The notes beneath the pieces were generated by a model. The model saw only the letters and a list, made by a program, of their open reading frames with translations, made no database searches and had not been told where the DNA came from. The position numbers and the translations under genes are program-made. Shown here in pieces: positions 6,765 through 51,997 of a stretch of DNA of 64,000 nt. Within the stretch, counting starts at the first letter, position 1, and every line of letters starts with the position of its first letter. Origin of the DNA: a virus. The DNA lies in IMG/VR virus record IMGVR_UViG_3300004369_000643, positions 1 to 64,000 of that record; one strand, given 5' to 3'.

Positions 6765-6860
6765 CCGTAGGGACACCATTGAGGGTAAATAGGGCTAATG
6801 CCGACCCTCGGTGCGTCCCGCCTGTGCTGGAAGGGTCGAACAGTCCAGCATCAGCCAAAA

Positions 6861-6930
6861 TAATGGCTGGACTGTTTCGGGAATAATGGCTGGACTATTT
6901 CGGGAATAATGGCTGGACTGTTTCGGGGTA
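6861..6930. repeat. 3 tandem copies of 23 bp TAATGGCTGGACTGTTTCGGGAA
   Basis: units start at 6861, 6884, 6907. Confidence 0.9.
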
Positions 6931-6971
6931 CAACAAAGCCCCAACTCCTATTGGAGTCAGGGCTAGTTGTG

Positions 6972-7016
6972 GGGGGATTCTGTTGCCACGTTCCCCGAAC
7001 GCCGAGTCTGGCTCAG
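6972..7016 (-). ncRNA. hairpin + H-type pseudoknot motif, copy A
   Basis: CGUU-loop-AACG UGGCAACAGAA; loop GGGG pairs with downstream CCCC. Confidence 0.6.
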
Positions 7017-7240
7017 TAATCGCTGTCCCAGCGTTCGCCCGCATAGGCGGGGTCAAACCAACTAGGTGCGAAGGGGCTGTCAGGATAGTCCTGACGAATC
7101 CGCTCATCACGCTCCAGTCGGATGTCCCAGTGCCGGTCACACCGAGGGAACGATGTGCCGGAACCGCTGAGTGACATACGGTAAATCGTCTCGCCTGCGC
7201 AAGCGCCGTTACCGTTGTCCAAACAGTCGTCGTGAGTCAT
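7013..7240 (-). CDS. hypothetical protein with Cys/His residues
   Basis: AAGGAGGTGA SD. Confidence 0.65.
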   Translation of the reverse strand: MTHDDCLDNGNGACAGETIYRMSLSGSGTSFPRCDRHWDIRLERDERIRQDYPDSPFAPSWFDPAYAGERWDSDY

Positions 7241-7559
7241 ACTCACCTCCTTTCAGAGTTTGATCGTCGGGAGTCCGATAGACTCTCACTATCGCCTGTC
7301 CTGATGGCGACTCCCGATTGCTTATGGGCACAGTATGGCATAGGGGTGTGACAGCCGTCAAATCGTTCACTCTAAGCCCGCCAGCAGTAGGTTTGGGGGC
7401 AATATGCTGCCCATACGGTAATAGTCGCTTAGAACGGCTCCCAGAGGGGTATAACGGGTATTCTCAGCCCGTCAGTCTGCGCCCTATTCTGCGGTGGCGT
7501 GGGTGACTGTCACACCCGTCTGGCATACTGGCATTATCACCTAGAGGAGAGGAGATAGC

Positions 7560-7700
7560 GTGATTAGTTTGACCGAATATCTACTACCCGATTGGGTGGC
7601 GGTGACCATGATGGTCGGTGCCAACCTAGTTCCCCTCGCACTCACAGTGCGGGTGTCGTGGATCTCACGCCGGTGCCAGTGTAAGCGGTGCCGGTGGTGA
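7560..7700 (+). CDS. 46 aa membrane peptide with C-terminal CxCxxC
   Basis: manual translation; GGAG SD, own promoter at 7508-7529. Confidence 0.55.
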   Translation: MISLTEYLLPDWVAVTMMVGANLVPLALTVRVSWISRRCQCKRCRW

Positions 7701-7857
7701 CCACCACCGTTCGGGCGCACGCCCAGCCAGTCCCGAAAGTGGTGGCAACCTGAGGCAGTCCAGCCGATATTCGCCCGTGGCGGGGCTTTATGACCGTAGA
7801 AATGGTTAGATCCCCGCCAGAGAAGAGGGAGAGGGTTCTGACGGGGATCTAAATAGT

Positions 7858-7893
7858 TGGTTCCGGTAGGGGAGAACATTCCTACCGGAACCT
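7858..7893. terminator. perfect stem-loop, probable terminator
   Basis: GGTTCCGGTAGG...CCTACCGGAACC. Confidence 0.6.
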
Positions 7894-7907
7894 ATGTCAT
7901 GTTAGTT

Positions 7908-7953
7908 GGGGGATTCTGGTGCCACGTTCCCCCGAACGCCGATTCTTAGTCGG
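7908..7953 (-). ncRNA. hairpin + pseudoknot motif, copy B
   Basis: UGGCACCAGAA linker; GGGGG/CCCCC pseudoknot. Confidence 0.6.
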
Positions 7954-7967
7954 TTATGACGCTAGTG

Positions 7968-8129
7968 TCAGAGCCACTCGAAGATATCGCCGTCTGCGAT
8001 TTCTGAGTAGTCCAGACCCTCGGCGTCGGCAAGAGCGTGCCAGAAATCATCTTCTGTCAACATCCCCCGACGCTCTACGGCGTCCCAATTCACGTGATCA
8101 TGCCACGTGTCTCGGTTGGAACTAGTCAT
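7968..8129 (-). CDS. 53 aa acidic hypothetical protein
   Basis: manual translation MTSSNRDTWHDHVNWDAVERRGMLTEDDFW...; GGGGGTGA SD. Confidence 0.6.
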   Translation of the reverse strand: MTSSNRDTWHDHVNWDAVERRGMLTEDDFWHALADAEGLDYSEIADGDIFEWL

Positions 8130-8206
8130 ATTGTCACCCCCTCTCTGGTGTTGGTTGGTTTATCTATCATCATTATGCCATAAGGGTGTAACACCCCCCT
8201 TAGGAG

Positions 8207-8253
8207 CCGGTAGTTCGGTTGCCACGCCTACCGGAGCGCCGATGCTTAGTCGG
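8207..8253 (-). ncRNA. hairpin + pseudoknot motif, copy C
   Basis: loop CCGGUA pairs with UACCGG. Confidence 0.6.
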
Positions 8254-8280
8254 GGATCTGAGTGGTATGTAGCCACTAGG

Positions 8281-8313
8281 CTACGGCGGTACCACAATTA
8301 CGATAATAATCAA
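8281..8313 (-). CDS. minigene MIIIVIVVPP*
   Basis: AGGGGGTGA SD, TTG start; paralogous to 16014-16049. Confidence 0.55.
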   Translation of the reverse strand: MIIIVIVVPP

Positions 8314-8402
8314 GTGGCATCACCCCCTATCCGGTTCTTCGGGTTCATGTATTCATTGTTGCATACGGATGGCCCGCCGGTCAAATCGTAGCCATAGTTC
8401 CT

Positions 8403-8596
8403 AGAGATAGGGGTATCTCTCGGAGAGATAGGTGAATCGAACGTATGTTCGACGAACGTATGTTCGATGTTAGGTGACCTTAACACCGATAATTCCGATC
8501 AGATTAGTCGGGATATTAGGTGCGCCTAACATTGACAATCCCGATCAGATTAGTCGGGATATTAGGTGTCCCTAACATGGCGAACGCATGTTCGAT
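8403..8596. promoter_or_regulatory. operator array 1: CsoR-like site, 3 LexA boxes, 3 IdeR/DtxR-like cores, 2 IscR/Rrf2-like boxes
   Basis: CGAAC-N4-GTTCG at 8438, 8453, 8581; TTAGG-N4-C(C/T)TAA at 8470, 8516, 8562; CCGATCAGATTAGTCGG twice. Confidence 0.75.
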
Positions 8597-8817
8597 TTCT
8601 TCGACGCTGGGGACACCATAGGTTATTTATGGAGGATATGGCGAAAGCGAGTGTGGGGGCGGGTGAGAGAGTCCCGAATGGTGAAGAAAGAAAAGGCTGC
8701 AGGCAGGGTCAAATAGTCCAGCAAATAAAAATACATTGGCTGGACTGTTTCGGGGTGAAACACGGGTGGTTGGGGCATGAAAAAGCCCCCCGACTCGGTT
8801 GAGCCGGAGGGCCTTCG

Positions 8818-8838
8818 CTATGGCGGCGGTACTGCCAT
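8818..8838 (-). CDS. minigene MAVPPP*
   Basis: AAAGGGGTGA SD 6 nt before ATG; intrinsic terminator follows. Confidence 0.5.
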   Translation of the reverse strand: MAVPPP

Positions 8839-9215
8839 GTACCATCACCCCTTTCGTGGTTGGTGCGAATGGTTGGTAGTCTTTCAATCGGCTCCCCCGC
8901 ACTTCCTGTGGCACTACCTGTGCTGGGTTCTGTAGCCGTATCTTTTATGTACCTTCATACTATCGTTGGGGTGTGACAGTACCAACCTGCGGGTAGGGCT
9001 GTAACACGATTGTAACATTCACAAAAATATCCAAAAAAGTTTGCAAAAAAAGGTTGACAAACACGGGCGGGCGGGAAAGTTCGCAAAAAGTGTCGCATTT
9101 ACGAACGATTCGTGCAGCGGCAGCACGGCGAGACAGTCCAGCCGCCAAGCAGCAACTGCTGGACTGTTTCAGGGTAAACAAAAACCCCTCAGGCCGTAGC
9201 CCAAGGGGTAATGTT

Positions 9216-9262
9216 GCTAAGTTTCTGTTGCCACCTACTTAGCGAGGCCGGAACTTATCCGA
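9216..9262 (-). ncRNA. hairpin + pseudoknot motif, copy D
   Basis: CCU-loop-AGG UGGCAACAGAA; GCUAAGU pairs with ACUUAGC. Confidence 0.6.
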
Positions 9263-9265
9263 TAA

Positions 9266-9514
9266 TCACCAGTCCAACTGGAACTCGGCCATGATCTCAG
9301 CCCGAGTCATAGTCTCGTCGGTAGCGTAGTTGACTACTGCGTAGTCATCATCAGCCATATCACCGAAACAAGGCCACAAGTAGCCAGCCACCATACGGTG
9401 CCCGTTGCTACTCCACCGGTCGAACCACTGTGCGGCTGCTTCCATGATAGAATCGCACTCAATGTCGATTCCACCCGAATAGCAATAACCGCCATTCAGC
9501 GTGTAGGTAATCAT
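9266..9514 (-). CDS. hypothetical protein
   Basis: AGGAGGTGA SD, own promoter. Confidence 0.7.
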   Translation of the reverse strand: MITYTLNGGYCYSGGIDIECDSIMEAAAQWFDRWSSNGHRMVAGYLWPCFGDMADDDYAVVNYATDETMTRAEIMAEFQLDW

Positions 9515-9637
9515 CTCACCTCCTCTTCAGTTGTCAATGAACTTCTACTGTCAGGATATCAACGGGGTGTGACAATCAAAACCTGCGTACACTGCTGTAA
9601 CACGATTGTAACATTTAGGGGTTGACAAAAAGTTGAG

Positions 9638-9690
9638 CGCAGCCAACTCGCAGCCAACTCGCAGCCAACTCGCAGCCAACTCGCAGCCAA
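9638..9690. repeat. 11 bp tandem repeat CGCAGCCAACT x ~4.8
   Basis: direct reading. Confidence 0.9.
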
Positions 9691-9791
9691 GCGGCAGCAA
9701 CCTCAGACAGTCCAGCCCCCCAACCGGCAACGGCGGGACTCGCTGGGGCACAAAGAAAACCCCCACCCTCCGAAAAGAGTGGGGGAGTTCT

Positions 9792-10070
9792 TCACCAGCA
9801 GGCGTTTTCGATGTAAGCCCGCAAGTTGTAGGCTCCATCGTCACCGCCGAATGTTTCCTCGCACCATTCACCGAGTACGCTAGCAACCGCCCAGTACGCA
9901 AAAGGAATAGAAGCCTCGCCCTTTTCGTAATCCCAGACGTTGATAACTTCGCTAGGTTCGATACATTCAGGCATCGTTAGTTCGATGTACGCACCGCCGA
10001 AGTATTCGGCTCGCACGACATACGCTCCAACTCGCCATTCTGCGGTTATCACGTTTTCTATTGTTTCCAT
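9792..10070 (-). CDS. hypothetical protein
   Basis: AGGAGGTGA SD; terminator downstream. Confidence 0.7.
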   Translation of the reverse strand: METIENVITAEWRVGAYVVRAEYFGGAYIELTMPECIEPSEVINVWDYEKGEASIPFAYWAVASVLGEWCEETFGGDDGAYNLRAYIENACW

Positions 10071-10188
10071 TGTTCACCTCCTCAGGTGGTCTACCACCAC
10101 GATAGCACATCGGTGTACCAGATGTCAAACTTTAGATAATGTCACACCCATATGCTATAGTGAGGTTATCAGAAGAAATGGGGTGATT

Positions 10189-10323
10189 ATGACAACGTAC
10201 ACAGTTTGGGTTGGGGGTATCCCCGACGTTGAGCGAGTAACCTACGCCAAAGCCGTCGAAGTTTCTGACGGTTGGATTGCTGATGGATACGACGACGTGG
10301 TTATCGAAAAAGAAAGCGAGTAA
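10189..10323 (+). CDS. small hypothetical protein
   Basis: GGGGTGA SD; MTTYTVWVGG...; promoter at 10140-10161. Confidence 0.6.
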   Translation: MTTYTVWVGGIPDVERVTYAKAVEVSDGWIADGYDDVVIEKESE

Positions 10324-10355
10324 CCTACGCCAAAGCCGTCGAAGTTTCTGACGGT
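10232..10355 (+). repeat. 41 bp exact direct repeat (10232-10272 and 10315-10355)
   Basis: AGCGAGTAACCTACGCCAAAGCCGTCGAAGTTTCTGACGGT twice. Confidence 0.9.
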
Positions 10356-10594
10356 GAGTTACGGTGTAGAACCAACAACCACAACTTCAACAAGCACTAC
10401 CGTTTTGGCACGCTCTACGATACCGAAATGGCCACAACAACAACAGTAGAGCCTCATTATGAAGGCGGTCAGGGCTTTTTCGTGCCGTCGCACAGTCCCG
10501 ACATGGGGTTGGGGTCGGCTGGACTGTTTTGGGGTAGAAAGAAACCCCCAGCCCGAAAGAGGGGAGGGGGTGAGACTGAGGGTTTCTTAGATTT

Positions 10595-10780
10595 TTAGTA
10601 TTTCACTTCTACGTCGTAAGTGTTTTCCAGATACTTGACTACTTCGTCAAGTGTCATTGTGGGTAAAACTTCCTCGCTAACGTATGTGTTATTTACGCTG
10701 AGGGTTACTTCTGTAGGGTGTCCGTCGATAGTGTGTACGACGGCGTGCGTTACGTTATTATGTGTTTCTCTTCCTAGCAT
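10595..10780 (-). CDS. hypothetical protein
   Basis: AGGAGA SD before MLGRE. Confidence 0.6.
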   Translation of the reverse strand: MLGRETHNNVTHAVVHTIDGHPTEVTLSVNNTYVSEEVLPTMTLDEVVKYLENTYDVEVKY

Positions 10781-10923
10781 CTTATCTCCTGTTCTGCTAT
10801 CACTTCCTTTCGTGAAGTGTCTCGAAGGATACTTTCCTTCTTTGGTTGCTCCCAGTATACCAGAGTCGGTACATAAAAGCAACCCCTACCGGCGGATACC
10901 AGTAGGGGTTGTGGATAACTTGT

Positions 10924-11103
10924 TTATCGTCGGTCTAGTTGTTTGGCTACTTTGAGTGCCTGCTCCCTTGTGGGGAACGTGGCTCGTACTCCGTTACCGT
11001 TAGCCGTGTCGATTACTTGCCATCTGCTGCCTGTAGGCGAGAGGCGTATGTCGTATCGCTCTTTTTCCACCATACGTTTCCTTTCTGTATTGGTTGCTAT
11101 CAT
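10924..11103 (-). CDS. hypothetical protein
   Basis: ORF track; start uncertain. Confidence 0.5.
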   Translation of the reverse strand: MIATNTERKRMVEKERYDIRLSPTGSRWQVIDTANGNGVRATFPTREQALKVAKQLDRR

Positions 11104-11222
11104 CGTACCACGTCGATTATCTCTTGTCAAGTTATTCGATTGACTTGACAACGGCGAGTGTATCGGGTAAGATAGGTAACGAGATAGAGAAAGGCTCTAT
11201 CCATAAGGAAAGGTATCATCAC

Positions 11223-11453
11223 ATGATGAGAGGACAAGTAAAGTTTATCCAAGTTACCGGCAAGGTTGTCGAAGTTTGGTACGAGTCAATGACTGGCGAC
11301 AGTTCCGACTCTATCATTGACCGGCACGAATGGCACAGCCATCGTCGGGCGATGGAAGTTGCGGCTCATATTGCTGCTCCTCACGGTTGCGTTGTTCATA
11401 ACGCATGGGAAAATCGCCCTATCCTCACGCTGAATAACGACTCACTCGTGTGA
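11223..11453 (+). CDS. hypothetical protein
   Basis: AAGGAAAGG SD; terminator at ~11481-11510. Confidence 0.6.
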   Translation: MMRGQVKFIQVTGKVVEVWYESMTGDSSDSIIDRHEWHSHRRAMEVAAHIAAPHGCVVHNAWENRPILTLNNDSLV

Positions 11454-11619
11454 TGAAACCCCTCTCCGGTTCTCGGTAGCAAAACCCCCAGCCTTCGGGT
11501 TGGGGGTTTTGCTTTACCCCGAAACAGTCCAGCCCTACCCACTTCCCCCTCGGGGCTTGTTTGGGGTACGAAAAAGCCCCCACTCTCAGGACACTTTTTG
11601 AGAGTGGGGGCTTAGACTG

Positions 11620-11907
11620 TCAGCAATCGCAGTCGTAACCGACCGTGCCACAATCGGGACACTTGCTGATACAAGGAACGCACCAGCCCCAGTATTCGGG
11701 GTCAAGTACGTCGGAGAACCGGAACTCGTCGGCGGTAAATGACTCGCCACAGTCGTGGCAACCGAACTTGACGACTAGGTTATTCACCACGCCTGCTCGT
11801 TCGGCTTGCCTAACAGCCACCGCCCATACCGTACGGTAGATGGGGGAGAGACTGCTCCGGTAGGACACCCGATAGTCGGGTGCGTTGTCAATGTTACTGT
11901 AGAACAT
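11620..11907 (-). CDS. Cys-rich putative zinc-finger protein
   Basis: three CxxC pairs; SD present. Confidence 0.6.
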   Translation of the reverse strand: MFYSNIDNAPDYRVSYRSSLSPIYRTVWAVAVRQAERAGVVNNLVVKFGCHDCGESFTADEFRFSDVLDPEYWGWCVPCISKCPDCGTVGYDCDC

Positions 11908-12261
11908 TGTTCCTTCCTTCCTATGTTCGGTGGGGCTTAGCGGACTCTCACCGCTACCGGGCCTTCTGGCAAGCCCCACTTGCTTATGCCTTCATACTAC
12001 CAGCGGGGTGTGCCAATACCAACGTCGGAAACATTCTGTTCACATTCGTTCACATTCTGGAAACAATCGGAAAATGCGAAAGTTTCGCAAAAGTACGGCT
12101 GCGAGAAAAACCAGAACGGCTGCGAAAACCAGAGAAACAAGATAAAATGCGAAACATTTTACCTGTACCAACACCCCGAAACAGTCCAGCCGCAGCAGGC
12201 GGCAGTCGGGACTCATTGAGGTACAAAGAAACCCCCAGCCCGTCTGGACTGAGGGTTCTTC

Positions 12262-12384
12262 TCACTTCTTGTCCCGATACTTCTGCGCTCCTCGCTTGGG
12301 GAAGTGTCTCCCTGATGCAACAAACCGTGATGCTGTTGCGCTGATGGGGCGACGGATAGGCTCGTGACCTTGATTACCTGTCAT
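12262..12384 (-). CDS. small basic hypothetical protein
   Basis: GAAAGGA SD, terminator follows. Confidence 0.5.
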   Translation of the reverse strand: MTGNQGHEPIRRPISATASRFVASGRHFPKRGAQKYRDKK

Positions 12385-12506
12385 ATGTTTTCCTTTCTGT
12401 CTACCACCAGTATAACCCACCGCCTCCGGTTTCGCAACTTGCGTAGCCATACTGTAACCTTGTCTCAAGTATTTACACTGTCACACCCATCTGGTACACT
12501 ACAAGC

Positions 12507-12671
12507 ATGAAAGACAACGGACACAAATGGTACGCAGACGACACCGACGTTTACTGCAAACAATGCGGGTGCTACGCCGGTGGTCGATACGCCTCCGAAA
12601 CATGCGAAGCCGTGTTGTATTCTCACCACGCTAGTGCTATACTGGAAGCAGATAGAAAGGATAGGGTATGA
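12507..12671 (+). CDS. 54 aa leaderless Cys-containing protein
   Basis: ATG 6 nt after TACACT -10; overlaps next start (ATGA). Confidence 0.5.
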   Translation: MKDNGHKWYADDTDVYCKQCGCYAGGRYASETCEAVLYSHHASAILEADRKDRV

Positions 12672-12871
12672 AACAAACCACCCATCGTCCCCAACGGGTA
12701 ACCGAACTTCCTCTCGGCATTTCGGTTTCCTCCGTTCACTACGACTTAGAGTATGACGACATGAAGTCTCGGCTCAACGAGACATGCGTGTTCTTTCCCG
12801 ACGGGAACTCTCAAGTGCGTGGAACTTACGACGACCATGACAAGGTAGTCAACGAACTAATCCACGCTTGA
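12668..12871 (+). CDS. hypothetical protein
   Basis: ORF track; SD; terminator follows. Confidence 0.6.
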   Translation: MKQTTHRPQRVTELPLGISVSSVHYDLEYDDMKSRLNETCVFFPDGNSQVRGTYDDHDKVVNELIHA

Positions 12872-12902
12872 GTTGCTTGGATAGTGGCAAAGCCCTCGGC
12901 AC

Positions 12903-13475
12903 CTACGGGTGTCGGGGGTTTTTTGCTTCCCGCTGGACTGTTTCGGGGTGGATACGAACTTTGTTTCGCAGCATTGCATCGTGGAGATCAACGAATGTTT
13001 CAGATCCTAACACATTATTCACGATTGTCAAGTAGATCCTTGCGAACTCTTTGCCGTGTGCCGAGAAGTGTTGTCCGTTTTCGGCATCGCACCAACAGCA
13101 AATATGAGTTAGTTCGTGGATCAAAGTGAGATGGTTTCTGCTCCAAAGGGGTAAAGTGATGGTTGAGTAGCAACTTTCTGCGTGACGGCGACGATATCCG
13201 GGTCGAAGTTTGAGTCCCCGCCGCCGATCCCCGTGATAAAGGTAGATCAGCCGTTTGTTCGGGCGGTGTTCTTGGGGGTCAGACAGTCCAGCCGCTGCAG
13301 CGGAACCCGTCAAATACGCAGCGGTTCTAGGAAAGTTCGATAAAAACCACGAAGATTTGAGTATTTCTACCAGAAACTTCCAGCATTCGTGCAGCGAAAG
13401 ACGTTCATATTCGTCAATAAGTTCCCACTCCGCCCGGTAAAGCCGGGTTCGCTGATAGTCTCGCTCAAGTTTCAT
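12903..13475 (-). CDS. putative HEXXH metallohydrolase (TIGR04338 / Rv0185-like)
   Basis: RLYRAE N-terminus, ITLPLW, LIHELTH, AHGKEF motifs. Confidence 0.7.
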   Translation of the reverse strand: MKLERDYQRTRLYRAEWELIDEYERLSLHECWKFLVEILKSSWFLSNFPRTAAYLTGSAAAAGLSDPQEHRPNKRLIYLYHGDRRRGLKLRPGYRRRHAESCYSTITLPLWSRNHLTLIHELTHICCWCDAENGQHFSAHGKEFARIYLTIVNNVLGSETFVDLHDAMLRNKVRIHPETVQREAKNPRHP

Positions 13476-13735
13476 CCGAACCAGCGTCTGAATAAGTCAT
13501 ACTTCTTTGGAATCCATCGAAAAAGATGGCTTGTCAAGTAAAACCAGAACAGTATTAGTGATGGTCGTCCCATTTTTGATGAGGAAAACTTGTAAAAAGC
13601 GGTACTCATGGTAGAATGTTTCCCGCTTCTCAACGCTATCAGATCATAAGCAGCAATGTATGCGGCAAGTAGCAGCCACGCCCAACCACCAAAGTCTCTT
13701 GATTTACCGTTAGCACGTCCCGTCGATGGTATCAT
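13472..13735 (-). CDS. membrane protein
   Basis: two hydrophobic segments; leaderless. Confidence 0.6.
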   Translation of the reverse strand: MIPSTGRANGKSRDFGGWAWLLLAAYIAAYDLIALRSGKHSTMSTAFYKFSSSKMGRPSLILFWFYLTSHLFRWIPKKYDLFRRWFG

Positions 13736-13965
13736 AGTAGTATATTACCCCAAACATAGAACGGAGCCTTTCACCCCGTGAGATACAACAACAATACTTC
13801 ATCTGGTTATGTCCGACATCCGAAGAAAGCCTGCCAACATTCGCAGTATGTTGAGGAACGGAAGGAGTATTCGTGGCTTGCTCGCCTCGCTGAATGGGAG
13901 CGAAAGATACCAGATAGCGTGAAAAACCCACCCCGAAGGGTGGGCTAATCACGGGAGGTGAACTC

Positions 13966-14220
13966 TCAGGGGAGAGTGATGGTGTCACCGATGGTGAGGT
14001 TTGCTGTACCGTAGGTGTCCACGATGTCGCTGGTGGCTGAACCTGTATGTCCTGTACAGTACCTAGAGGCTATGCCCCATGCTGTGTCGCCGGGGTGAAC
14101 TCTCACAGTGATTGCTTCACACTCGTAGGCTGTTGCCTTGTCTAGTGCCACATCGGCTAGTCCTGCAAGGGTTAGTGTGCCGAGTGCGGTAGCGGTTATG
14201 GTTGCTATTACTTTCTTCAT
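13966..14220 (-). CDS. secreted LysM-domain protein
   Basis: signal peptide, VHPGDTAWGIA...LTIGDTITLP. Confidence 0.75.
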   Translation of the reverse strand: MKKVIATITATALGTLTLAGLADVALDKATAYECEAITVRVHPGDTAWGIASRYCTGHTGSATSDIVDTYGTANLTIGDTITLP

Positions 14221-14423
14221 GGTGCCAGTATACCCACATCGCATAGTGTTTGTCAAGTATTTTGCTTGATTTAGTGCAGGTGTCTGAATATCTCAGAGAT
14301 TATCAGGGTCGTCCTTGACCTCGATACTTCTTGCCGTAGTTCTTCGACTGCTTCTGGCGTGACGTTCCCGCCTTGGAGTGAACGCCTTTCCGCTTCACTT
14401 TCGATGTCGATGCTTTCTTCGTA

Positions 14424-14618
14424 TCAACCGCTCGTGCCATTCTTCTTTGCCTCTCGTTCTAGTCGGCGCTCTTCCGCCTGTTCGATTTCTGATTTTGTTG
14501 ACATTCTATGACCGTTTTGACACCAGACAGTAGCACCACCCAAAGTTCCAATAGTGTATTCACACTTCAGGCAGTAGTAGTTAGTTAGTCCATCTCTAGT
14601 TTTGTGTGTAAGTTGCAT
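14424..14618 (-). CDS. small zinc-ribbon protein
   Basis: CxxC...CxxxH; leaderless after TTGACA-17-TAGGAT. Confidence 0.55.
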   Translation of the reverse strand: MQLTHKTRDGLTNYYCLKCEYTIGTLGGATVWCQNGHRMSTKSEIEQAEERRLEREAKKNGTSG

Positions 14619-15026
14619 GAGAGTCATCCTATCGAATACGGCGGGACTTGTCAAGAGTGTCAGTAATCGGTATTCTACCACCAAATATGTACGAATAGTG
14701 AAAAGTATTAGTGTAACCTAGTTTTATGACTACGATGCAACGTTTACAAGCAGCAACTTTTGTTGCTTTTTGCTGCGAACCTGATATAGTGTGGCGAGAT
14801 ATTGCCGAACTACTGTGCTTGGGATATGAGCCGGTCGATTTCGATGTGTCCCAACTGGTCAGCGAGTCCCGCAGCGGGATACTCGCCTGACTTCTCGCAG
14901 CCGCTGCCGCAGCCAAACCGTGCTGCTCGCAGCCGAACTCGGTGAAAACTTCCAACTTTTTGATGTTTCTTCGCTGGGGTGTTGGTACAGGTTGCGAAAC
15001 CTGCCCCCTGCTGATATACTGGACTC

Positions 15027-15305
15027 ATGATGAAACACTATTACATAGGCATCCGCATGATGGCTGACCGTATCGGTCTTGACCCTTGGGATGTTCACCT
15101 GCCTACGTTGCGCACGTTCGTTCGTGACGCTGAGGGTGCACCCACTTCACGGTTCTGGTTCGGTTCCCCTTGCCGGTTTATCCGATCGGTGGACATCGCC
15201 GTTCACGTTTGGTTGCCCGATGCACTCATGGAGCGCCACCCTATGCTAGCGTGCTACCTGCGCACCACTAGCCCCCGATGGGGTAAGGCATGGAGGTCGT
15301 GGTAA
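15027..15305 (+). CDS. hypothetical protein
   Basis: leaderless ATG 6 nt after TATACT. Confidence 0.55.
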   Translation: MMKHYYIGIRMMADRIGLDPWDVHLPTLRTFVRDAEGAPTSRFWFGSPCRFIRSVDIAVHVWLPDALMERHPMLACYLRTTSPRWGKAWRSW

Positions 15306-15358
15306 GACGTTGCGTTTTGCCACGACACCTGCTATACTGGAAAGTGAAAGGAGATGCG

Positions 15359-15529
15359 ATGACCGCATACGACAACTGGAAAACTACGAACCCCGACTTG
15401 GAGTACGACGAGTGCCCCTCATGCGGGGAGGGCGTAGTCGAAGGTGACCGCTACGAGTGGTGGTGTTCAGAGTCCTGCGGGTATGGGGGAGACAACTTCC
15501 CTGAGCCTGACGACTACTACTACGAGTGA
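15359..15529 (+). CDS. small acidic zinc-ribbon protein
   Basis: AAAGGAG SD; CPSC...CSESC. Confidence 0.6.
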   Translation: MTAYDNWKTTNPDLEYDECPSCGEGVVEGDRYEWWCSESCGYGGDNFPEPDDYYYE

Positions 15530-15706
15530 GGAACAGCCCCCGATGCCTGATGGTGTCGGGGGTTTCTTCGTGCCCCAGTAAGCCCCGCCCGATGCGACGC
15601 ATTCGCCGCTTCGCCGCTCGCTCCGCCCCGTTTCGGGACTGGTTGATGGTGACTCGCCTGTGTGCGGACAGCAAAGAACCCCGCCCTTTCGGGTCGGGGT
15701 CGATGC

Positions 15707-15841
15707 TCACTCTGCGTTGATCAGAGCGAAGGGATCTGTGCGATTCGCCGTGTCAACGAAGACGATGGTCTCGCACTCGTAGCACTCGCCCTCATCGTTG
15801 AGGTAGTCTTCGAATGCTCCGCAGTTGATGCAGTTGCTCAT
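15707..15841 (-). CDS. 44 aa zinc-ribbon-like protein
   Basis: MSNCINCG...ECYEC; SD and terminator. Confidence 0.55.
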   Translation of the reverse strand: MSNCINCGAFEDYLNDEGECYECETIVFVDTANRTDPFALINAE

Positions 15842-15940
15842 CTGTTCTTTCCTTTCTTCTTGATACTGTCATAGTATCAGCGAGGTGTGTCGATCACAAC
15901 CTGTCTCGGTCGATGTAACACGACTGTAACAAAGTGGGTT

Positions 15941-15986
15941 GACCGGTTCTGTTGCCACGCTCCGGTCAGCGCCGACTCTCAGTCGG
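15941..15986 (-). ncRNA. hairpin + pseudoknot motif, copy E
   Basis: loop GACCGG pairs with CCGGUC. Confidence 0.6.
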
Positions 15987-16013
15987 GGGTGGTGAGGTGC
16001 TGTAGCCTCACGG

Positions 16014-16049
16014 CTACGGCGGCTCCACGATTATGATGATCATCATCAA
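16014..16049 (-). CDS. minigene MMMIIIIVEPP*
   Basis: perfect AGGAGGTGA SD, TTG start. Confidence 0.55.
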   Translation of the reverse strand: MMMIIIIVEPP

Positions 16050-16144
16050 GTGGAATCACCTCCTGTCCGGTTCTCTTTCATGACTTCATCTTACCGTTCC
16101 CCCCACGTTCGACAACCTGTGCCGACCGATTTTGTGTCTCTAGT

Positions 16145-16719
16145 AGAGATACCCCCTATCTCTGATAGATATGGGGCGGCTCACAGCAGGAAGGCACGGC
16201 ACTCGCCGTGCTACTCGCCTGTCGGCGGGCGAACCGACCGAGTGTAGATCGGCACCCCTCATGTCAAGTCGAAGCAATCGAACACATGTTCGATCAGAGC
16301 CGACCTCACCCGACCGAACACATGTTCGATCCGACCGAAACCCGACCGAACTAGTCGGGAATCAAACCCGACCAACCTAGTCAACAATCAAAAGCCGACC
16401 AACTAGGTCAACAATCAAACCCGACTGAACTAGTCGGGAATCGAAACCCGACCAAACCAGTCAACAATCAAAAGCCGACCAACTAGGTCAACAATAAAAG
16501 CCGACCAGAACAGTCGGGAATCAAAGCCGACCAGAACAGTCGGGAATCAAAGCCGACCAAACCGGTCGGGAATCAATCGAACACACGTTCGATCCGAACG
16601 AGAACGTGAACACAATCACAAAGCGAACACATGTTCGATCAACAACACCAACAATCGAACAAACGTTCGATCAACCAAAGCCGACCCCAATGTTACAGTT
16701 TGATGACAAACTTGACAAA
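16145..16719. promoter_or_regulatory. operator array 2: CsoR-like site, 5 LexA boxes, 9 tandem IscR/Rrf2-type boxes, PhoB/OmpR-like direct repeats
   Basis: CGAAC-N4-GTTCG at 16279, 16315, 16578, 16624, 16656; CCGAC-N7-GTC(GG/AA) x9 at 16338-16573. Confidence 0.75.
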
Positions 16720-16822: not shown

Positions 16823-18709
16823 TCATGGTTTGGTGTTGAGTATGTTTTGGATTGCGGTTTGGGTGATGGCTGGTTGTGTTTTTTGGGTTTTGTTTTGTAG
16901 GGTGTTGTAGATGTGTTGGTCTATGGTGTTGGGGTTGATGAGGTTGTGTATTGTGGCGGGTTGTGTTTGTCCGATGCGGTGGATTCGGGCGCAGGTTTGG
17001 TGGTATTTGGCGGGTGTCCATGGGGCTTCGATGAAGAGCATGTTGTTTGATGCGGTTAGGGTGTGTCCGTGTGCTGCTGCGTCTATGGAGATGACGATGT
17101 TTTTGCAGTTTGTGTTATTCATGAATTCGTGTTTTGCGGTTTCGGTCTTTTGGGGGTTTTGGCCTCCGATGATCATTGGGGCGTTTAGTTCGTTGGCTAG
17201 GGTTTGTACTATGTGGCGGTGGTGGGCGGCGATGACTATTTTTTGTCCTGAGTTGTTGGCGTTTTCGATCCATTCTAGGGCGTGGGGGATTTTGGATTGG
17301 GCGGCGATTTTTCTGAGTTCTGTGAGTTGGATGAGGTTTTCGTAGTTTTGTGTTGCGTAGTGTGCTCGGATTCGGGCGGCTGTGGGGTTGGTGCCTTCGT
17401 TGATGGCGAGTTGTTCTTGTTGTTGTGTGTACCATTCTTGGAGGTCGTTGAGGGCGTGGTTGTACATTGTGCGGTGTTTTTTGTCCATTGTGGTGTGGAT
17501 GGTGTTGTATGTGATTGGTGGTAGGTCGGTGAGGACGTGTTGTTTTTCTCTGCGGATGTAGCAGTGGGTTTGTAGTTTGTTGAGTAGTTCTTTGTTGTTG
17601 GTTGATCCGTGTATTTGCCAGTGTCCCCAGTTGTCTCTGTAGGCTCCGCAGTAGCGTTTGTAGAAGTTCCAGCGGCCTCCGAAGTTGTCGATGTGTCCTA
17701 GGATTTCTAGTTGGGGTGCGTATTCGGCGGGCATGTTGGTGATGGGGGTGCCGGTGAGGAGTAGGATGTTGCCGGTGGTTGGGATGTTTTTTGCTATGTT
17801 TTTGGCGGCTTTTGTTCGTTGTGCGTCTGGGTTTTTGCAGTAGTGTGATTCGTCTAGGATGAGTGTGTTGTGGTGTTGGTTGTTGAGGTGTTGTTTTTGG
17901 GCGTGGATGTTGGGGTATCCGATGATGGTGTAGTCGGTTTCGGTCAGTTCGGGGGTTTTGCGGCCTTCGATGATTTGGATGGTGCGGTGGGGGAGTGCTT
18001 CTTGGATTTTTGTTTTCCAGTCTTCTGTGAGGCTGGTGGGGCAGATGATGAGGGCGGGGTATTGGTTTGTGTATTCTGTGGTGGCTAGGGCTTGGAGTGA
18101 TTTGCCTAGTCCCATTTCGTCTGCGATGAAGGTGCGTTGTTTTTCGGCGGCGTATGCTACGCCTGCTTTTTGGTAGGGGTAGAGTTGTAGTTGTAGGTTG
18201 GGGATGGTGATGTTTGCGTCGGTTGCTTGGGTGAGTTCTTGGGCGTGTTGTGCTTTTTTGGTTTCGATTTCTGCTTGTGTTTGGATGTGTTCGGGTATGG
18301 GGTGGTTGTATTTGTTTGCCCATTGGATGAGTTCGTGTACGTTGTTGTATGGTGTTTCCCAGTGGTTGTGGTGGGGGTTCCATTTGATGCCGGGGATGGC
18401 TTTGAGTTCGTGGATTTGTAGTGTGTCGTAGGGGACGCTGATTTTTAGGATGTCTTTTTCGAGTCTTATGGTGGTAGCCCCGATTGGGTGGTCGGGTAGT
18501 TGTAGGCGTATTAGTTCTTCGTCCACGTCGATGTTCCATGAGTTGGCGAAGGATATGGCTCGTTTTAGGGCTGGGAGGGGTATTGTCCAGTGTTTGTTGA
18601 GTTTGTCCCAGCGTGCGTGTGGGAATGATGTTTTGAGGGCTGTTATTTCGTCTTTGTTGTATGGTGTGTCTAGGACGAGTTGTGTGCCGTTTAGGTAGAG
18701 TCGTTTCAT
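16823..18709 (-). CDS. SNF2-family (SMARCAL1/HARP-like) helicase
   Basis: ADEMGLGKS, LDESH, LTGTP, Q-x-x-ARIHRIGQ; N-terminal HARP-like W repeats; start at MKRLY. Confidence 0.9.
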   Translation of the reverse strand: MKRLYLNGTQLVLDTPYNKDEITALKTSFPHARWDKLNKHWTIPLPALKRAISFANSWNIDVDEELIRLQLPDHPIGATTIRLEKDILKISVPYDTLQIHELKAIPGIKWNPHHNHWETPYNNVHELIQWANKYNHPIPEHIQTQAEIETKKAQHAQELTQATDANITIPNLQLQLYPYQKAGVAYAAEKQRTFIADEMGLGKSLQALATTEYTNQYPALIICPTSLTEDWKTKIQEALPHRTIQIIEGRKTPELTETDYTIIGYPNIHAQKQHLNNQHHNTLILDESHYCKNPDAQRTKAAKNIAKNIPTTGNILLLTGTPITNMPAEYAPQLEILGHIDNFGGRWNFYKRYCGAYRDNWGHWQIHGSTNNKELLNKLQTHCYIRREKQHVLTDLPPITYNTIHTTMDKKHRTMYNHALNDLQEWYTQQQEQLAINEGTNPTAARIRAHYATQNYENLIQLTELRKIAAQSKIPHALEWIENANNSGQKIVIAAHHRHIVQTLANELNAPMIIGGQNPQKTETAKHEFMNNTNCKNIVISIDAAAHGHTLTASNNMLFIEAPWTPAKYHQTCARIHRIGQTQPATIHNLINPNTIDQHIYNTLQNKTQKTQPAITQTAIQNILNTKP

Positions 18710-19587
18710 GTTCTGTTTTTGGGGTAGGGGTAGGTTTTGTTGTTTTGTTCGAATTGTTTTTTGAGTTGTTTGGTTTCTTTTTTGTTTTGTCCTAAGATGA
18801 GTGCGTATTTGTGTTTTGCGGGTACTTGTACGGGTGTTGCGTTTGCTTGTACGGTTTTGCTGTGTTGGCGTAGTTGTTGTTCGATGTGGTCGGGTATGTT
18901 GTTCCAGATGATGGTGCTGTCTCTGTTCCAGTTGGGTTGCCATTCGATGTTGAGTTCTTTAGCGTATTTTTTGTATGCTGATCTTGCTCGGAAGAAGCGG
19001 TCTGATACGACTTTGCCTGAGTAGGGGTTGATGTAGCGGGTTGTGCCGCCTGAGTTTTGGCCGAGGTAGTAGAAGTTGCAGGCTTGGTATACGGTGCCTA
19101 GTTCTTTTGCGAGGGGGTCTGAGTAGGCGGTGAATAGGCGGTATTGTGTGTTTTGTACCATCCATTTAATTGACCACATGATGAAGGCGCTTGCAAGGTT
19201 TTTGGGTGACCATGAGATGCAGGCTCCTCGTCCGATGAGGCGTTCTATTTCTTTTGTGTTGTCGCCTAGTAGTTTGCTGAAGGCGTTGGGCATACTGAAT
19301 AGGAGTACGCCTGCGAGTTGGTTGTTGTGGTATGCGCCGAACCAGTGTGTGGTGTAGAGGCTTGTTGTGCCTAACCATTCGTGGCGTTTGATGAATTCTG
19401 TTGCGTCTTTGTGTTCTTGTTCTGTGGTTAGGGGTGTGAATGTGAAGTCGTTGACTGTGAGTAGTTGTGCTTGTTGTAGGGTGATGCCTGCTTGTTGTAG
19501 GTCTTCGTCTAGGTTTTGTAGACGCATTTCGTATTGCCAACAGTGTTCTTTGTTGTATGCCCGTAGTTCGGGGATTGTGGGTGTCAT
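18706..19587 (-). CDS. Mom-like GNAT-fold DNA modification enzyme
   Basis: FIKRHEWLG, PKNLAS, AYSDP...GTVYQACNFYYLG motifs of the Mu Mom family. Confidence 0.7.
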   Translation of the reverse strand: MTPTIPELRAYNKEHCWQYEMRLQNLDEDLQQAGITLQQAQLLTVNDFTFTPLTTEQEHKDATEFIKRHEWLGTTSLYTTHWFGAYHNNQLAGVLLFSMPNAFSKLLGDNTKEIERLIGRGACISWSPKNLASAFIMWSIKWMVQNTQYRLFTAYSDPLAKELGTVYQACNFYYLGQNSGGTTRYINPYSGKVVSDRFFRARSAYKKYAKELNIEWQPNWNRDSTIIWNNIPDHIEQQLRQHSKTVQANATPVQVPAKHKYALILGQNKKETKQLKKQFEQNNKTYPYPKNRT

Positions 19588-19943: not shown

Positions 19944-20918
19944 TTAGTAGTTGCCGCCGCCGTCTGGTAGCAGAAGTAGTGGGTCTCCGTCGTCGTGGTT
20001 GATGCCGTATGAGGGGAGTTCTTCCCATAGTACTTTGTCGTAGGGGATTTCTGGGTGGTTTCTGCTGAGCCATGTGCGTGTGATTGTGCAGTTGGGGTAG
20101 TAGAATCCGCCGTCGTCTCCCCAGCGCTGGAAGAAGTGTTCGTTGGAGTTTGATCTGTTGGTGAGGAGGTCGTCTGCCATAATTTCGTATGGGACGTGTC
20201 CTCCTGCTTTTTCTACTTCTGATTCGGCTACGAGCCGGTTGCACCAGTGTGCTACGACTGCTGGCCGTTTTACACCACTTTGGGTGGGCTGGGCGGCTCT
20301 GTGTACTGACCGTCCGTGCCATACTTGTAGGTCGCCCCGTCGGGCGTGGAGTTGCACGATTGGGGCGTCGATTTCTTTCCGGTGGTCTTCAAATTCTTGG
20401 CTTGATACGTGCCCTCCGCCGTCTGGGGTGGGCTTTTGTGAAAACCGTTCACGATAGTTTAAATCCCATTTATGTGATCCGGGGATTGCTTCGATTGCAC
20501 CGTTTTCTTCGTTGCAGTCACCTAATGCTACCATTCCTCCAACGTAGTTTTGTGGCCCTACTTCGTGTGGGTGGTTTGCGTCAATGTGCCATCCGGTGTG
20601 TTGTACTGTCATACGTGTTTTGGTGACGTGGAGCGCTACGGCAATGTCGATTTCTTTGAAGAAGTCGTTTACACCTTTGTGGCAGAGCACTTCTTTCAGT
20701 TCGGGGACGTGCATGTACGCTTTGTCGTCTTCCCATCCTATGAAGTGTGGGTTTTCGGGTGTATCGAATTCGGCGTCCCAGCGGTTCCCGTATGAGTCTA
20801 GTGACTCTTCGGGAACTGCGTTGGGGATGATGGCAAAGCCATACTTTTCGTAGAATTCGGCTGTGTCTGTTCTTTCGCCGTTGTATTCGTAATTGTCAAT
20901 AACTGTGATTTCGCTCAT
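19944..20918 (-). CDS. PhyH-family 2OG-Fe(II) dioxygenase
   Basis: WHID, ENGAIEAIPGSH, GDLQVWHGRSVH. Confidence 0.85.
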   Translation of the reverse strand: MSEITVIDNYEYNGERTDTAEFYEKYGFAIIPNAVPEESLDSYGNRWDAEFDTPENPHFIGWEDDKAYMHVPELKEVLCHKGVNDFFKEIDIAVALHVTKTRMTVQHTGWHIDANHPHEVGPQNYVGGMVALGDCNEENGAIEAIPGSHKWDLNYRERFSQKPTPDGGGHVSSQEFEDHRKEIDAPIVQLHARRGDLQVWHGRSVHRAAQPTQSGVKRPAVVAHWCNRLVAESEVEKAGGHVPYEIMADDLLTNRSNSNEHFFQRWGDDGGFYYPNCTITRTWLSRNHPEIPYDKVLWEELPSYGINHDDGDPLLLLPDGGGNY

Positions 20919-21002
20919 GCCCCTATTTTACCACTTTTCTTTCTGCCATCATACAAACTCATCGTTTACCCTGATGAGTCGCTATGCTTTCATGTTGTTA
21001 TT

Positions 21003-21863: not shown

Positions 21864-21876
21864 TGTGCTCCTTTCT

Positions 21877-51817: not shown

Positions 51818-51997
51818 ATGCAGCCTAGCCAAGTGATACAGAGAATTGCTGCCGCTAACCAAACTTTAGCAGAATTAGGAGCATATGCTGTTCTTGGTGA
51901 CCACGTTAGAGATAACGAGGTAGAATATCTGTATAGAGACGGATTAGAGCATGTCTTTAGTCCCTTAGAAACCACTGGGGATTCGGATGACGATTGA
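51818..51997 (+). CDS. 59 aa hypothetical protein
   Basis: AGGAGG SD; manual translation MQPSQVIQRIAAANQ... Confidence 0.6.
   Translation: MQPSQVIQRIAAANQTLAELGAYAVLGDHVRDNEVEYLYRDGLEHVFSPLETTGDSDDD

What the first reader, a model, noticed from the sequence alone, without database searches (positions are those of the whole stretch)
6972..15986. Five-copy structured RNA: hairpin plus H-type pseudoknot with invariant UGGCA(A/C)C(A/C)GAA-type linker and full covariation
Seen on the minus strand at 6972-7016, 7908-7953, 8207-8253, 9216-9262 and 15941-15986, always just 3' of a stop codon. The layout is P1 hairpin, then P2 stem (CGUU/AACG, CGCU/GGCG, CCU/AGG, CGCU/AGCG), then a linker (UGGCAACAGAA x3, UGGCACCAGAA, UGGCAACCGAA), then a segment complementary to the P2 loop. 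Loop and anti-loop covary: GGGG/CCCC, CCGGUA/UACCGG, GCUAAGU/ACUUAGC, GACCGG/CCGGUC. I do not recognise it as a described family. Inference: a 3'-end protector, ribozyme, protein sponge or ligand binder. UGGCAAC/UGGCACC also resembles the T-box bulge that pairs with the tRNA NCCA end (speculative).
Basis: partly seen in the sequence, partly recalled or inferred. Interest (0 to 1): 0.88.

Follow-up and report, generated by a model that had tools for sequence, protein, structure and literature searches.

The report
Phage genes capped by tmRNA knot
Five small early genes or mini-genes of an uncultured marine or salt-marsh phage end in the same ~45-base hairpin-plus-pseudoknot that forms the tail of the two-piece ribosome-rescue RNA (tmRNA) of alphaproteobacteria. 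It most likely acts as a portable cap protecting the message end just behind the stop codon, and I found no catalogue entry or paper on this stand-alone use.

Summary
Five minus-strand copies have a hairpin P1, then an H-type pseudoknot (P2, P3) with an almost invariant 11-nt linker. Both pseudoknot stems covary.

It is not an unknown fold. It is the 3' domain of the coding piece of alphaproteobacterial two-piece tmRNA: the stop-codon helix H5 plus the pseudoknot behind the tag. The Rfam alpha_tmRNA consensus ends in this same sequence but leaves it unpaired, which explains why Rfam gave no hit at its thresholds.

What appears new is the context:
- The 102.6-kb phage record has no tmRNA, SmpB or integrase.
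- The module sits behind ordinary small ORFs or Pro-Pro-stop mini-ORFs. Two copies are followed within 6 nt by intrinsic terminators.
- About 35 distinct stand-alone copies occur in other viral contigs, behind unrelated ORFs.
- The stop codon lies either inside P1 or about 16 nt before it.
- One other contig has a likely hammerhead, below Rfam's cut-off, that would cut 6-8 nt after the knot.

Best reading (inference): a portable, stop-codon-proximal 3'-end cap that blocks 3' exonucleases, as it probably does for the tmRNA coding piece. Ribosome or S1 docking and factor decoy remain open.

This scan reported the same module before on other DNA (three earlier notes). I found no publication describing it.

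The parts
6972..7016 (-). Module copy c1: P1 hairpin (7002-7016, holds the UGA stop 7013-7015), P2, P3 and linker 6978-6988.
   Evidence: R1 score 62.6 bits. The non-pseudoknot fold recovers P1 and P3.
7013..7246 (-). 77-aa ORF ending inside P1 of c1; a real phage protein family.
   Evidence: phrog_6230, E 3e-23. Promoter-like site at 7361-7332.
6937..6964 (-). Intrinsic-terminator-like hairpin (12 bp plus U-rich tail) starting about 6 nt after c1.
7908..7953 (-). Module copy c2; linker 7914-7924 is the variant UGGCACCAGAA.
   Evidence: R1 score 67.3 bits. Weak alpha_tmRNA hit over 7904-8013. In close relatives position 7919 reads the consensus A.
7968..8129 (-). 53-aa acidic ORF whose UGA lies about 16 nt before P1 of c2.
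   Evidence: A 65%-identical homologue in L360 carries a module at the same place with different, compensated P3 arms.
8207..8253 (-). Module copy c3; linker 8214-8224 is the variant UGGCAACCGAA. It lies in the leader of the 53-aa gene.
   Evidence: R1 score 57.2 bits.
8281..8313 (-). SD-led mini-ORF (10 codons, Ile/Val-rich, ends Pro-Pro-UAG). The UAG lies in a GUAGCC-N4-GGCUAC hairpin, about 28 nt before c3.
   Evidence: Promoter-like site at 8384-8355.
9216..9262 (-). Module copy c4; linker 9223-9233.
   Evidence: R1 score 56.9 bits.
9266..9514 (-). 82-aa ORF whose UGA lies about 5 nt before P1 of c4.
   Evidence: Promoter-like site at 9537-9510.
9184..9209 (-). Intrinsic-terminator-like hairpin (11 bp plus U tract) starting about 6 nt after c4.
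15941..15986 (-). Module copy c5; linker 15947-15957. It is followed by a promoter-like repeat, not a terminator.
   Evidence: R1 score 55.6 bits. Repeat family D3 at 15864-15933.
16014..16049 (-). Paralogous SD-led mini-ORF (Met/Ile-rich, ends Pro-Pro-UAG in the same kind of hairpin), about 28 nt before c5.

Best explanation
Each copy is a stand-alone version of the 3' domain of the coding piece of alpha-type two-piece tmRNA. That domain is helix H5, which in tmRNA carries the tag's stop codon, stacked on the single pseudoknot behind the tag, whose loop is the invariant GGCAACAGAA.

In this phage the module has been detached from tmRNA and is used as a portable 3'-UTR element. It is transcribed on the minus strand right behind the stop codon of small early ORFs or mini-ORFs.

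Proposed mechanism (inference):
- P1, P2 and P3 stack into one rod of about 16-18 bp. The A-rich linker locks the rod, probably through minor-groove contacts.
- The rod stops 3'-to-5' exonucleases a few nucleotides past the stop codon.
- Decay or processing intermediates therefore keep an intact ORF with its stop codon. The message lasts longer and does not become a non-stop mRNA that would be tagged and destroyed by trans-translation.
- The module would do the same job in two-piece tmRNA, whose coding piece has a free 3' end only about 50 nt behind its own stop codon.

Shown: the identity with the tmRNA domain, the fold, the position relative to stop codons and terminators, and the spread in phages.

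Inferred: nuclease blocking and the benefit to the phage.
For: Identity with the tmRNA domain:
- Pattern hits of the second P1 type lie inside ARAGORN-called permuted tmRNA genes, directly after the tag stop.
- The RF01849 consensus ends in the same P2/P3/linker sequence.
- 27 of 151 alphaproteobacterial genomes have exactly one R1 hit. 23 of 29 alphaproteobacterial R1-hit loci checked lie at the 3' end of a permuted tmRNA gene, and GGCAACAGAA is present in 27 of the 29.

Not a tmRNA here:
- ARAGORN finds none in the window, RF01849 reaches only 18.5 bits in the 102.6-kb record, and that record has no SmpB.

Fold:
- Among 84 distinct pattern hits, 35 have a P3 run of 5 or more against 5 in a displaced control.
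- The P2 pairs were not used for selection. They form in 34 of 35 of those hits against 9 of 49 of the rest.
- Orthologous ORFs keep the module with compensated stems.

3'-end role:
- The module always follows an ORF or mini-ORF.
- The stop codon clusters at +2 to +7 (inside P1) or -14 to -18 relative to P1. The first intact helix therefore begins about 10-18 nt after the stop, just outside a terminating ribosome (the ribosome footprint is from general knowledge).
- c1 and c4 are followed within 6 nt by terminators. The same layout occurs in a Rhizomicrobium tmRNA gene.
- The Rfam alpha_tmRNA model ends 3-4 nt after P3.
- In L415 a likely hammerhead abuts the module. It scores 30.2 bits, E 6e-5, below the gathering score. 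Its GUC cut site lies 6-8 nt after P3 and would leave the module as the RNA's 3' end.

Host independence:
- Stand-alone copies occur in contigs whose modules have 38-70% G+C, behind unrelated ORF families.
Against: - There are no RNA 3'-end data. The metatranscriptome contigs that cover c1, c2, c4 and c5 are shallow and cannot show ends.
- c3 sits inside a leader rather than at a transcript end, unless the transcript is processed there.
- c1 and c4 already have terminator hairpins, so a second barrier looks redundant.
- An 11-nt loop kept nearly invariant from alphaproteobacterial tmRNA to phages of diverse G+C suggests recognition by a conserved partner, not only a passive roadblock.
- Folding energies without the pseudoknot are not exceptional.
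- Only 4 of 25 stand-alone copies examined are followed by a terminator-like hairpin.
- A hammerhead-like core follows in only 2 of the 68 loci from the combined-pattern scan. One has a sub-threshold Rfam match (L415); the other was read by eye only (L392).
Confidence: 0.5

Rival explanations
1. Ribosome or S1 docking device acting at termination. As in tmRNA, the H5-pseudoknot unit contacts the 30S surface or ribosomal protein S1 when the ribosome reaches the stop codon. It would aid termination or recycling, or keep ribosomes or S1 near these very short messages for re-initiation.
For: - The stop-to-helix spacing of about 10-18 nt puts the module at the mRNA entry site of a terminating ribosome.
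- The loop is nearly invariant across hosts, as expected for a universal partner.
- Literature: S1 binds the tmRNA pseudoknot ring, most strongly PK2, and H5/PK2 touch S2 and S3 on the 30S (PMC3968760).
Against: - Stop-codon distance is not fixed. It is two clusters plus outliers at -28, -32, -44 and -58.
- PK2-PK4 can be replaced in E. coli tmRNA without loss of tagging (PMC3968760).
- No binding data exist.
Confidence: 0.2
2. Processing or 3'-end-formation signal. A host RNase that trims the tmRNA coding piece recognises the knot and cuts or stops next to it. Polycistronic early transcripts such as mini-ORF-c3-ORF53-c2 would then be split into units that each end in a module.
For: - Every ORF or mini-ORF in these cassettes is followed by a module. 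c3 lies between a mini-ORF and the next gene.
- The L415 hammerhead points to a need for an end close to P3.
Against: - No enzyme is known that recognises this knot.
- This largely overlaps with the best explanation and cannot be separated from it by sequence alone.
Confidence: 0.12
3. Decoy that titrates a factor binding the tmRNA tail and so modulates trans-translation. Candidate factors are RNase R, S1 or an unknown alpha-type tmRNA partner. The analogy is the TLD-only tmRNA of mycobacteriophage DS6A, which inhibits tmRNA.
For: - Five copies sit on strongly promoted early transcripts.
- There is a precedent for phage tmRNA pieces that inhibit tmRNA (PMC4131195).
Against: - The module was detected in bacterial tmRNAs only in alphaproteobacteria. 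Sampled cyanobacteria and Actinomycetota gave only a few weak R1 hits.
- Stand-alone copies nevertheless occur in contigs of very different G+C.
- This phage's portal and RecA lean, weakly, towards actinobacterial phages and hosts.
- A decoy need not sit next to stop codons.
Confidence: 0.08
4. Small ligand-sensing riboswitch, or a self-cleaving ribozyme in its own right.
For: It is a compact pseudoknot with an invariant loop, as in preQ1, SAM-II, guanidine-III or pistol RNAs (general knowledge).
Against: - No riboswitch or ribozyme family matches even at E up to 10.
- It lies after ORFs, not before them.
- It follows unrelated genes.
- In tmRNA it is a constitutive structural domain.
- One contig adds a separate likely hammerhead right behind it.
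Confidence: 0.05
5. Leftover ssrA fragments from integration or excision at a tmRNA gene (att-site remnants).
For: ssrA fragments are known in prophages and islands (PMC4131195, PMC9004378).
Against: - There are five copies with different, mutually compensated stems.
- Each sits behind a different ORF.
- No tyrosine integrase is present in the 102.6-kb record.
- Orthologous positions in other contigs keep the fold with changed stems.
Confidence: 0.02

Closest known systems
3' domain of the coding piece of alphaproteobacterial two-piece (permuted) tmRNA: helix H5 plus the pseudoknot behind the tag (Rfam RF01849 alpha_tmRNA; PMC3968760, PMC11915505)
   Same: - Same order: hairpin, P2, P3 and the 11-nt linker with GGCAACAGAA.
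- CGGC or GGC lies at the P1/P2 junction.
- Stop codons lie in or near the hairpin.
- A terminator often follows.

   Different: - No tRNA-like domain, no PK1 or resume codon, and no tag ORF.
- It follows normal SD-initiated ORFs of 41-160 aa or mini-ORFs.
- This phage has five copies, against one per alphaproteobacterial genome.
Complete two-piece tmRNA genes carried by phages (Melnitz and pelagiphages, PMC9004378; Caulobacter phiCbK-like phages)
   Same: The same module is present in phage DNA.
   Different: There it is part of a full tmRNA gene, one per genome. Here it stands alone behind protein genes.
TLD-only (CDS-less) tmRNA of mycobacteriophage DS6A (PMC4131195, PMC11915505)
   Same: A phage keeps only one piece of tmRNA.
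   Different: It is the opposite piece (tRNA-like domain). It is a separate small RNA gene rather than an mRNA appendage, and it is reported to inhibit tmRNA.
3'-terminal mRNA stabilisers that block 3' exonucleases: REP hairpins, the B. thuringiensis cry 'retroregulator', hairpins left by RNase III at T7 sites (general knowledge); xrRNA pseudoknots of flaviviruses as a structural analogy
   Same: Proposed mode of action: a stable fold at the message end, portable between genes.
   Different: Those in bacteria are simple hairpins. This is a sequence-conserved pseudoknot shared with tmRNA. xrRNAs block a 5'-to-3' enzyme.
PeSL-type promoter/stem-loop early-gene cassettes of T4-like phages
   Same: Modular early cassettes: promoter, small ORF, structured 3' element, terminator.
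   Different: PeSL elements are DNA-level promoter-plus-hairpin units without a conserved pseudoknot.

Membership tests
tmRNA gene, two-piece alpha type (RF01849 / RF04321) | tRNA-like domain (alanine acceptor stem plus T arm) | tested here: not met
   ARAGORN finds no tmRNA or tRNA in the window. RF01849 reaches at best 18.5 bits against a cut-off of 50 in the whole 102.6-kb record. No RF04321 hit at gathering in the window.
tmRNA gene, two-piece alpha type (RF01849 / RF04321) | Tag reading frame without SD or start codon, ending in a hydrophobic ...AA tag | tested here: not met
   The upstream ORFs are ordinary, 53-82 aa; one is phrog_6230. The mini-ORFs have an SD and a start codon and end in Pro-Pro.
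tmRNA gene, two-piece alpha type (RF01849 / RF04321) | Helix H5 carrying or adjoining the stop codon | tested here: met
   The UGA of the 77-aa ORF lies in the 5' strand of P1 in c1. P1 holds UGA or UAA in most stand-alone copies.
tmRNA gene, two-piece alpha type (RF01849 / RF04321) | Terminal pseudoknot with GGCAACAGAA loop directly after H5 | tested here: met
   Alignment A2 and pair counts. Same sequence in the RF01849 consensus and in 27 of 29 alphaproteobacterial R1-hit loci printed, most of them tmRNA genes.
Small pseudoknot riboswitches (preQ1, SAM-II/V, guanidine-III, fluoride, glutamine) and small ribozymes (pistol, hammerhead, twister, hatchet) | Match to the family covariance model | tested here: not met
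   No hit at gathering in 64 kb. None at E up to 10 in 6800-16200.
Small pseudoknot riboswitches | Position in the 5' leader of functionally related genes | tested here: not met
   It lies after ORFs of many unrelated families.
T-box leader | Specifier loop, T-box sequence, terminator/antiterminator upstream of aminoacyl-tRNA-related genes | tested here: not met
   No T-box match in Rfam. No such genes follow the copies.
ssrA fragment at a phage attachment site | Single copy next to an integrase, identical to the host tmRNA 3' end | tested here: not met
   Five diverged copies. No PF00589 integrase in the record.
Exonuclease-blocking 3' mRNA stabiliser (functional class) | RNA 3' ends accumulate at the element, and half-life depends on it | not testable with these tools
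   Only shallow metatranscriptome contigs are available.

The most novel reading that the evidence does not exclude
The H5-pseudoknot unit is not a passive cap. It would be a conserved handle for the translation or rescue machinery (30S head, S1, or a tmRNA-specific factor). Phages and other mobile elements across phyla would attach it to their messages either to control what happens to a ribosome at the stop codon, or to escape or subvert trans-translation. That would also give a first specific function to the invariant loop of alpha-type tmRNA.
Probability: 0.2. Interest if true: 0.85.

Novelty: new variant of a known kind. Interest (0 to 1): 0.6.

Why it matters
It links an orphan-looking phage RNA motif to a defined domain of tmRNA. 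It shows that this domain works, or is at least selected, on its own behind ordinary genes.

If the cap reading is right:
- It explains why the pseudoknot loop of two-piece tmRNA is invariant, although the pseudoknots behind the tag are dispensable in E. coli.
- It identifies a compact (~45 nt), host-independent, portable mRNA 3' stabiliser of the pseudoknot type in bacteria and phages, which could be useful for expression design.
- It improves annotation, because these copies give weak tmRNA hits.

If the docking or decoy reading is right, it reveals a new interface between phages and ribosome rescue.

Tried and rejected
- **Rfam.** No hit at gathering or relaxed thresholds except a weak alpha_tmRNA match.
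- **Close phage relatives.** blastn of the region against isolated phages found no match.
- **Literature search by linker sequence.** It returned only primers.
- **Bacterial genome scan.** The strict pattern gave mostly chance hits.
- **Host assignment by RecA.** Best identity was 68% to alphaproteobacteria, 66% to cyanobacteria and 70% to Actinomycetota, so it is not decisive.
- **Stops in all three frames before the knot.** This held in only 11 of 35 copies, so it is no rule.
- **Hammerhead or other ribozyme behind the module in 29 stand-alone loci.** None was adjacent. One pistol ribozyme lies 390 nt downstream in L357.
- **Combined module-plus-hammerhead pattern.** Of 68 hits, 2 are real. 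L392 and L415 gave no hit at gathering. L415 passes only at relaxed threshold. The L392 hammerhead was judged by eye only, and its fold was not supportive.
- **Metatranscriptome contigs.** They cover four copies but are shallow, may contain DNA and show no ends.
- **Isolated phages with stand-alone copies.** Only the tmRNA-embedded copies of Caulobacter phages were found.
- **Key tmRNA papers.** Keiler 2000, Sharkady 2004 and Gaudin 2002 are not held.

Full report
**1.
- Reading the minus strand at the five places shows the same architecture each time:
  - a 4-6 bp hairpin P1;
  - the junction CGGC;
  - a 3-4 bp stem P2 whose loop carries the 5' arm of P3;
  - an 11-nt linker;
  - the 3' arm of P3.
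- The linker pattern occurs five times on the minus strand. It occurs once, without the fold, on the plus strand.
- P2 and P3 differ between copies but stay complementary.
- Nested folding recovers P1 and P3 in all five copies. The energies are not unusual, so the evidence is comparative.

**2. What it is.**
- A pattern scan of viral contigs, filtered by script, showed that many hits have the same pseudoknot. They fall into two P1 types.
- The second type lies inside permuted (two-piece) tmRNA genes called by ARAGORN, directly behind tags such as ANESYALAA.
- Aligned to Rfam alpha_tmRNA (RF01849), one such gene shows that the family consensus ends in the very sequence of P2, P3 and the linker. 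Rfam annotates this part as unpaired because covariance models cannot hold pseudoknots.
- That explains why the window gave only an 18.5-bit alpha_tmRNA match over c2.
- In tmRNA terms, P1 is helix H5, which carries the tag's stop codon. The knot is the single pseudoknot that follows it in alpha-type two-piece tmRNA (PMC3968760).
- I sampled bacterial genomes with a model built from 30 members (A2, R1):

| Group sampled | Genomes with an R1 hit | Notes |
|---|---|---|
| Alphaproteobacteria | 27 of 151, exactly one each | 23 of 29 alphaproteobacterial R1-hit loci checked lie at the 3' end of a permuted tmRNA gene; GGCAACAGAA is present in 27 of the 29 |
| Cyanobacteria | 5 of 101 | weak hits only |
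| Actinomycetota | 2 of 151 | weak hits only |

**3. It is not a tmRNA here.**
- The window has no tRNA-like domain. The whole 102.6-kb virus record has no tmRNA match above Rfam's cut-off, no SmpB and no tyrosine integrase. The record is estimated to be 69% complete.
- It holds exactly these five copies.
- The phage is a tailed phage with portal, prohead protease and terminase. It also encodes a bacterial-type RecA. It has no close cultured relative.
- Related DNA occurs in seawater and salt-marsh metagenomes.
- Its host is unresolved.

**4. Context in the window.** The region from 5 to 16.7 kb, on the minus strand, is a chain of early cassettes with repeated promoter-like, operator-like and terminator elements.
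- **Two cassettes are simple: promoter, small ORF, module, terminator.**
  - The 77-aa ORF (phrog_6230) has its UGA inside P1 of c1. The terminator starts 6 nt after the knot.
  - The 82-aa ORF stops 5 nt before c4, again with a terminator 6 nt behind.
- **A third unit has two modules.**
  - It reads: promoter, SD-led 10-codon mini-ORF ending Pro-Pro-UAG inside a hairpin, c3, then the 53-aa ORF, then c2.
- **c5 follows a paralogous mini-ORF unit.**
  - It is succeeded by the next promoter.
- Every module thus follows an ORF or mini-ORF, as it follows the tag ORF in tmRNA.

**5. Context elsewhere.**
- *How many copies:* a stricter scan found 41 viral loci, about 38 of them true. Only 5 lie inside tmRNA genes.
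- *How many distinct copies:* together with relatives found through the portal protein, I collected 35 distinct stand-alone copies.
- *Upstream ORFs:* they are 41-160 aa long and belong to many unrelated families.
- *Stop position:* the stop codon lies either inside P1 (+2 to +7) or 14-18 nt before it, with a few outliers. The first helix left intact by a terminating ribosome therefore starts about 10-18 nt after the stop.
- *Orthologues:* orthologous ORFs keep the module with changed but compensated stems. Examples are the c2 ORF against L360, and L037 against a 128-kb relative.
- *Independent check of P2:* the P2 pairs were not used to select sequences. They form in 34 of 35 pseudoknot-bearing pattern hits, against 9 of 49 of the others.
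- *Copy number:* other large contigs carry 1-3 copies, so five is the most seen here.
- *What follows the module:* a terminator (4 of 25 examined), a promoter or the next gene.
- *Hammerhead cases:* in two contigs a hammerhead-like core follows.
  - In L415 the Rfam type III hammerhead model matches below its cut-off (30.2 bits, E 6e-5). The GUC cut site lies 6-8 nt after P3.
  - The L392 case was read by eye only.

**6. How it most likely works.**
- In tmRNA the module is the last structure of the coding piece. The Rfam model ends 3-4 nt after P3, and a terminator can follow, as in Rhizomicrobium.
- In the phage it is likewise the last structure before a terminator, a likely ribozyme cut or the next transcription unit. 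It also sits as close to the stop codon as a terminating ribosome allows.
- The simplest common function is a 3' cap that stops 3'-to-5' exonucleases just past the stop codon. Surviving RNA then always carries a complete ORF with its stop.
- This matters most for tmRNA itself. It also matters for short, strongly expressed early phage messages, which would otherwise become non-stop substrates for trans-translation.
- This part is inference.
- The near-invariant loop may be needed for tertiary contacts within the knot, or it may be read by a conserved partner.
- The literature reports that S1 binds most strongly to PK2 and that H5/PK2 contact S2 and S3. Docking and decoy readings therefore stay open.

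**7. Known or new.**
- Known:
  - the fold as a tmRNA domain;
  - full two-piece tmRNAs in phages (PMC9004378);
  - TLD-only phage tmRNA (PMC4131195);
  - ssrA fragments at attachment sites.
- I found no paper on the stand-alone H5-pseudoknot module behind ordinary genes. Several key tmRNA papers were not available.
- This scan has noted the same module before on other DNA (e1-816143, e1-5872943, e1-5922850). I reached the tmRNA identity independently. I took only the hammerhead lead from those notes, and confirmed it partly.

**8. Limits.**
- There is no expression or 3'-end evidence beyond shallow metatranscriptome contigs.
- The collections were searched with sequence-restricted patterns, so diversity is underestimated.
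- P3 covariation in A2 is partly ascertained by my filter. P2 and the orthologue comparisons are not.

Noticed in passing
window 8281-8313 (-) and 16014-16049 (-): Two paralogous SD-led mini-ORFs, Ile/Val/Met-rich and ending Pro-Pro-UAG. The UAG lies in the 5' strand of a GUAGCC-N4-GGCUAC hairpin, about 28 nt upstream of modules c3 and c5. The composition recalls ilv-type leader peptides, and Pro-Pro-stop is a known termination-stalling motif (both from general knowledge). Possibly a translation-sensing leader.
   Followed up: partly
window 8438-8595 and 16271-16690: Arrays of CGAAC-N5-GTTCG palindromes. There are also nine tandem 26-27-nt units (16338-16576) and 46-nt repeats (8466-8603) next to the c3 and c5 units. 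These may be operator or iteron arrays, or a replication origin or regulatory hub.
   Followed up: no
window 6859-6927 and at least 8 other sites between 6.8 and 13 kb: A repeated GAAACAGTCCAGCC-type motif on the minus strand. It includes three exact tandem 23-nt copies right after the c1 terminator, and inverted pairs. It often sits just behind terminators and may be a protein-binding site.
   Followed up: no
window 9627-9703: An 11-nt unit (CGCAGCCAACT) repeated about six times in tandem, upstream of the c4 cassette.
   Followed up: no
window 31609-32583 (-): Full-length bacterial-type RecA (Pfam E 1e-137), 66-70% identical to RecA of three different phyla. Rad52-like annealase and PD-(D/E)XK nuclease genes lie at 34726-36157.
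   Followed up: partly
L027 2790-2880 (-) and L021 4915-4975 (-): In two other viral contigs the stand-alone module is followed, 45-60 nt downstream, by a T-arm-like hairpin (GGUUCGA-type loop) and a possible acceptor-like pairing. ARAGORN and Rfam do not call it as tRNA or tmRNA. L021 also has an 82-nt RF00023 match (59 bits) 4 kb away.
   Followed up: partly
L357 8429-8502 (+): Pistol ribozyme (Rfam 45.9 bits, above cut-off) about 390 nt downstream of a stand-alone module in another viral contig.
   Followed up: no
window 18706-19587 (-), 19944-21956 (-), 51987-60377 (+): A Mom-family protein, PhyH dioxygenase and histone-deacetylase-like genes lie in the replication region. A 2796-aa ORF lies between the head protease and downstream structural genes.
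   Followed up: no
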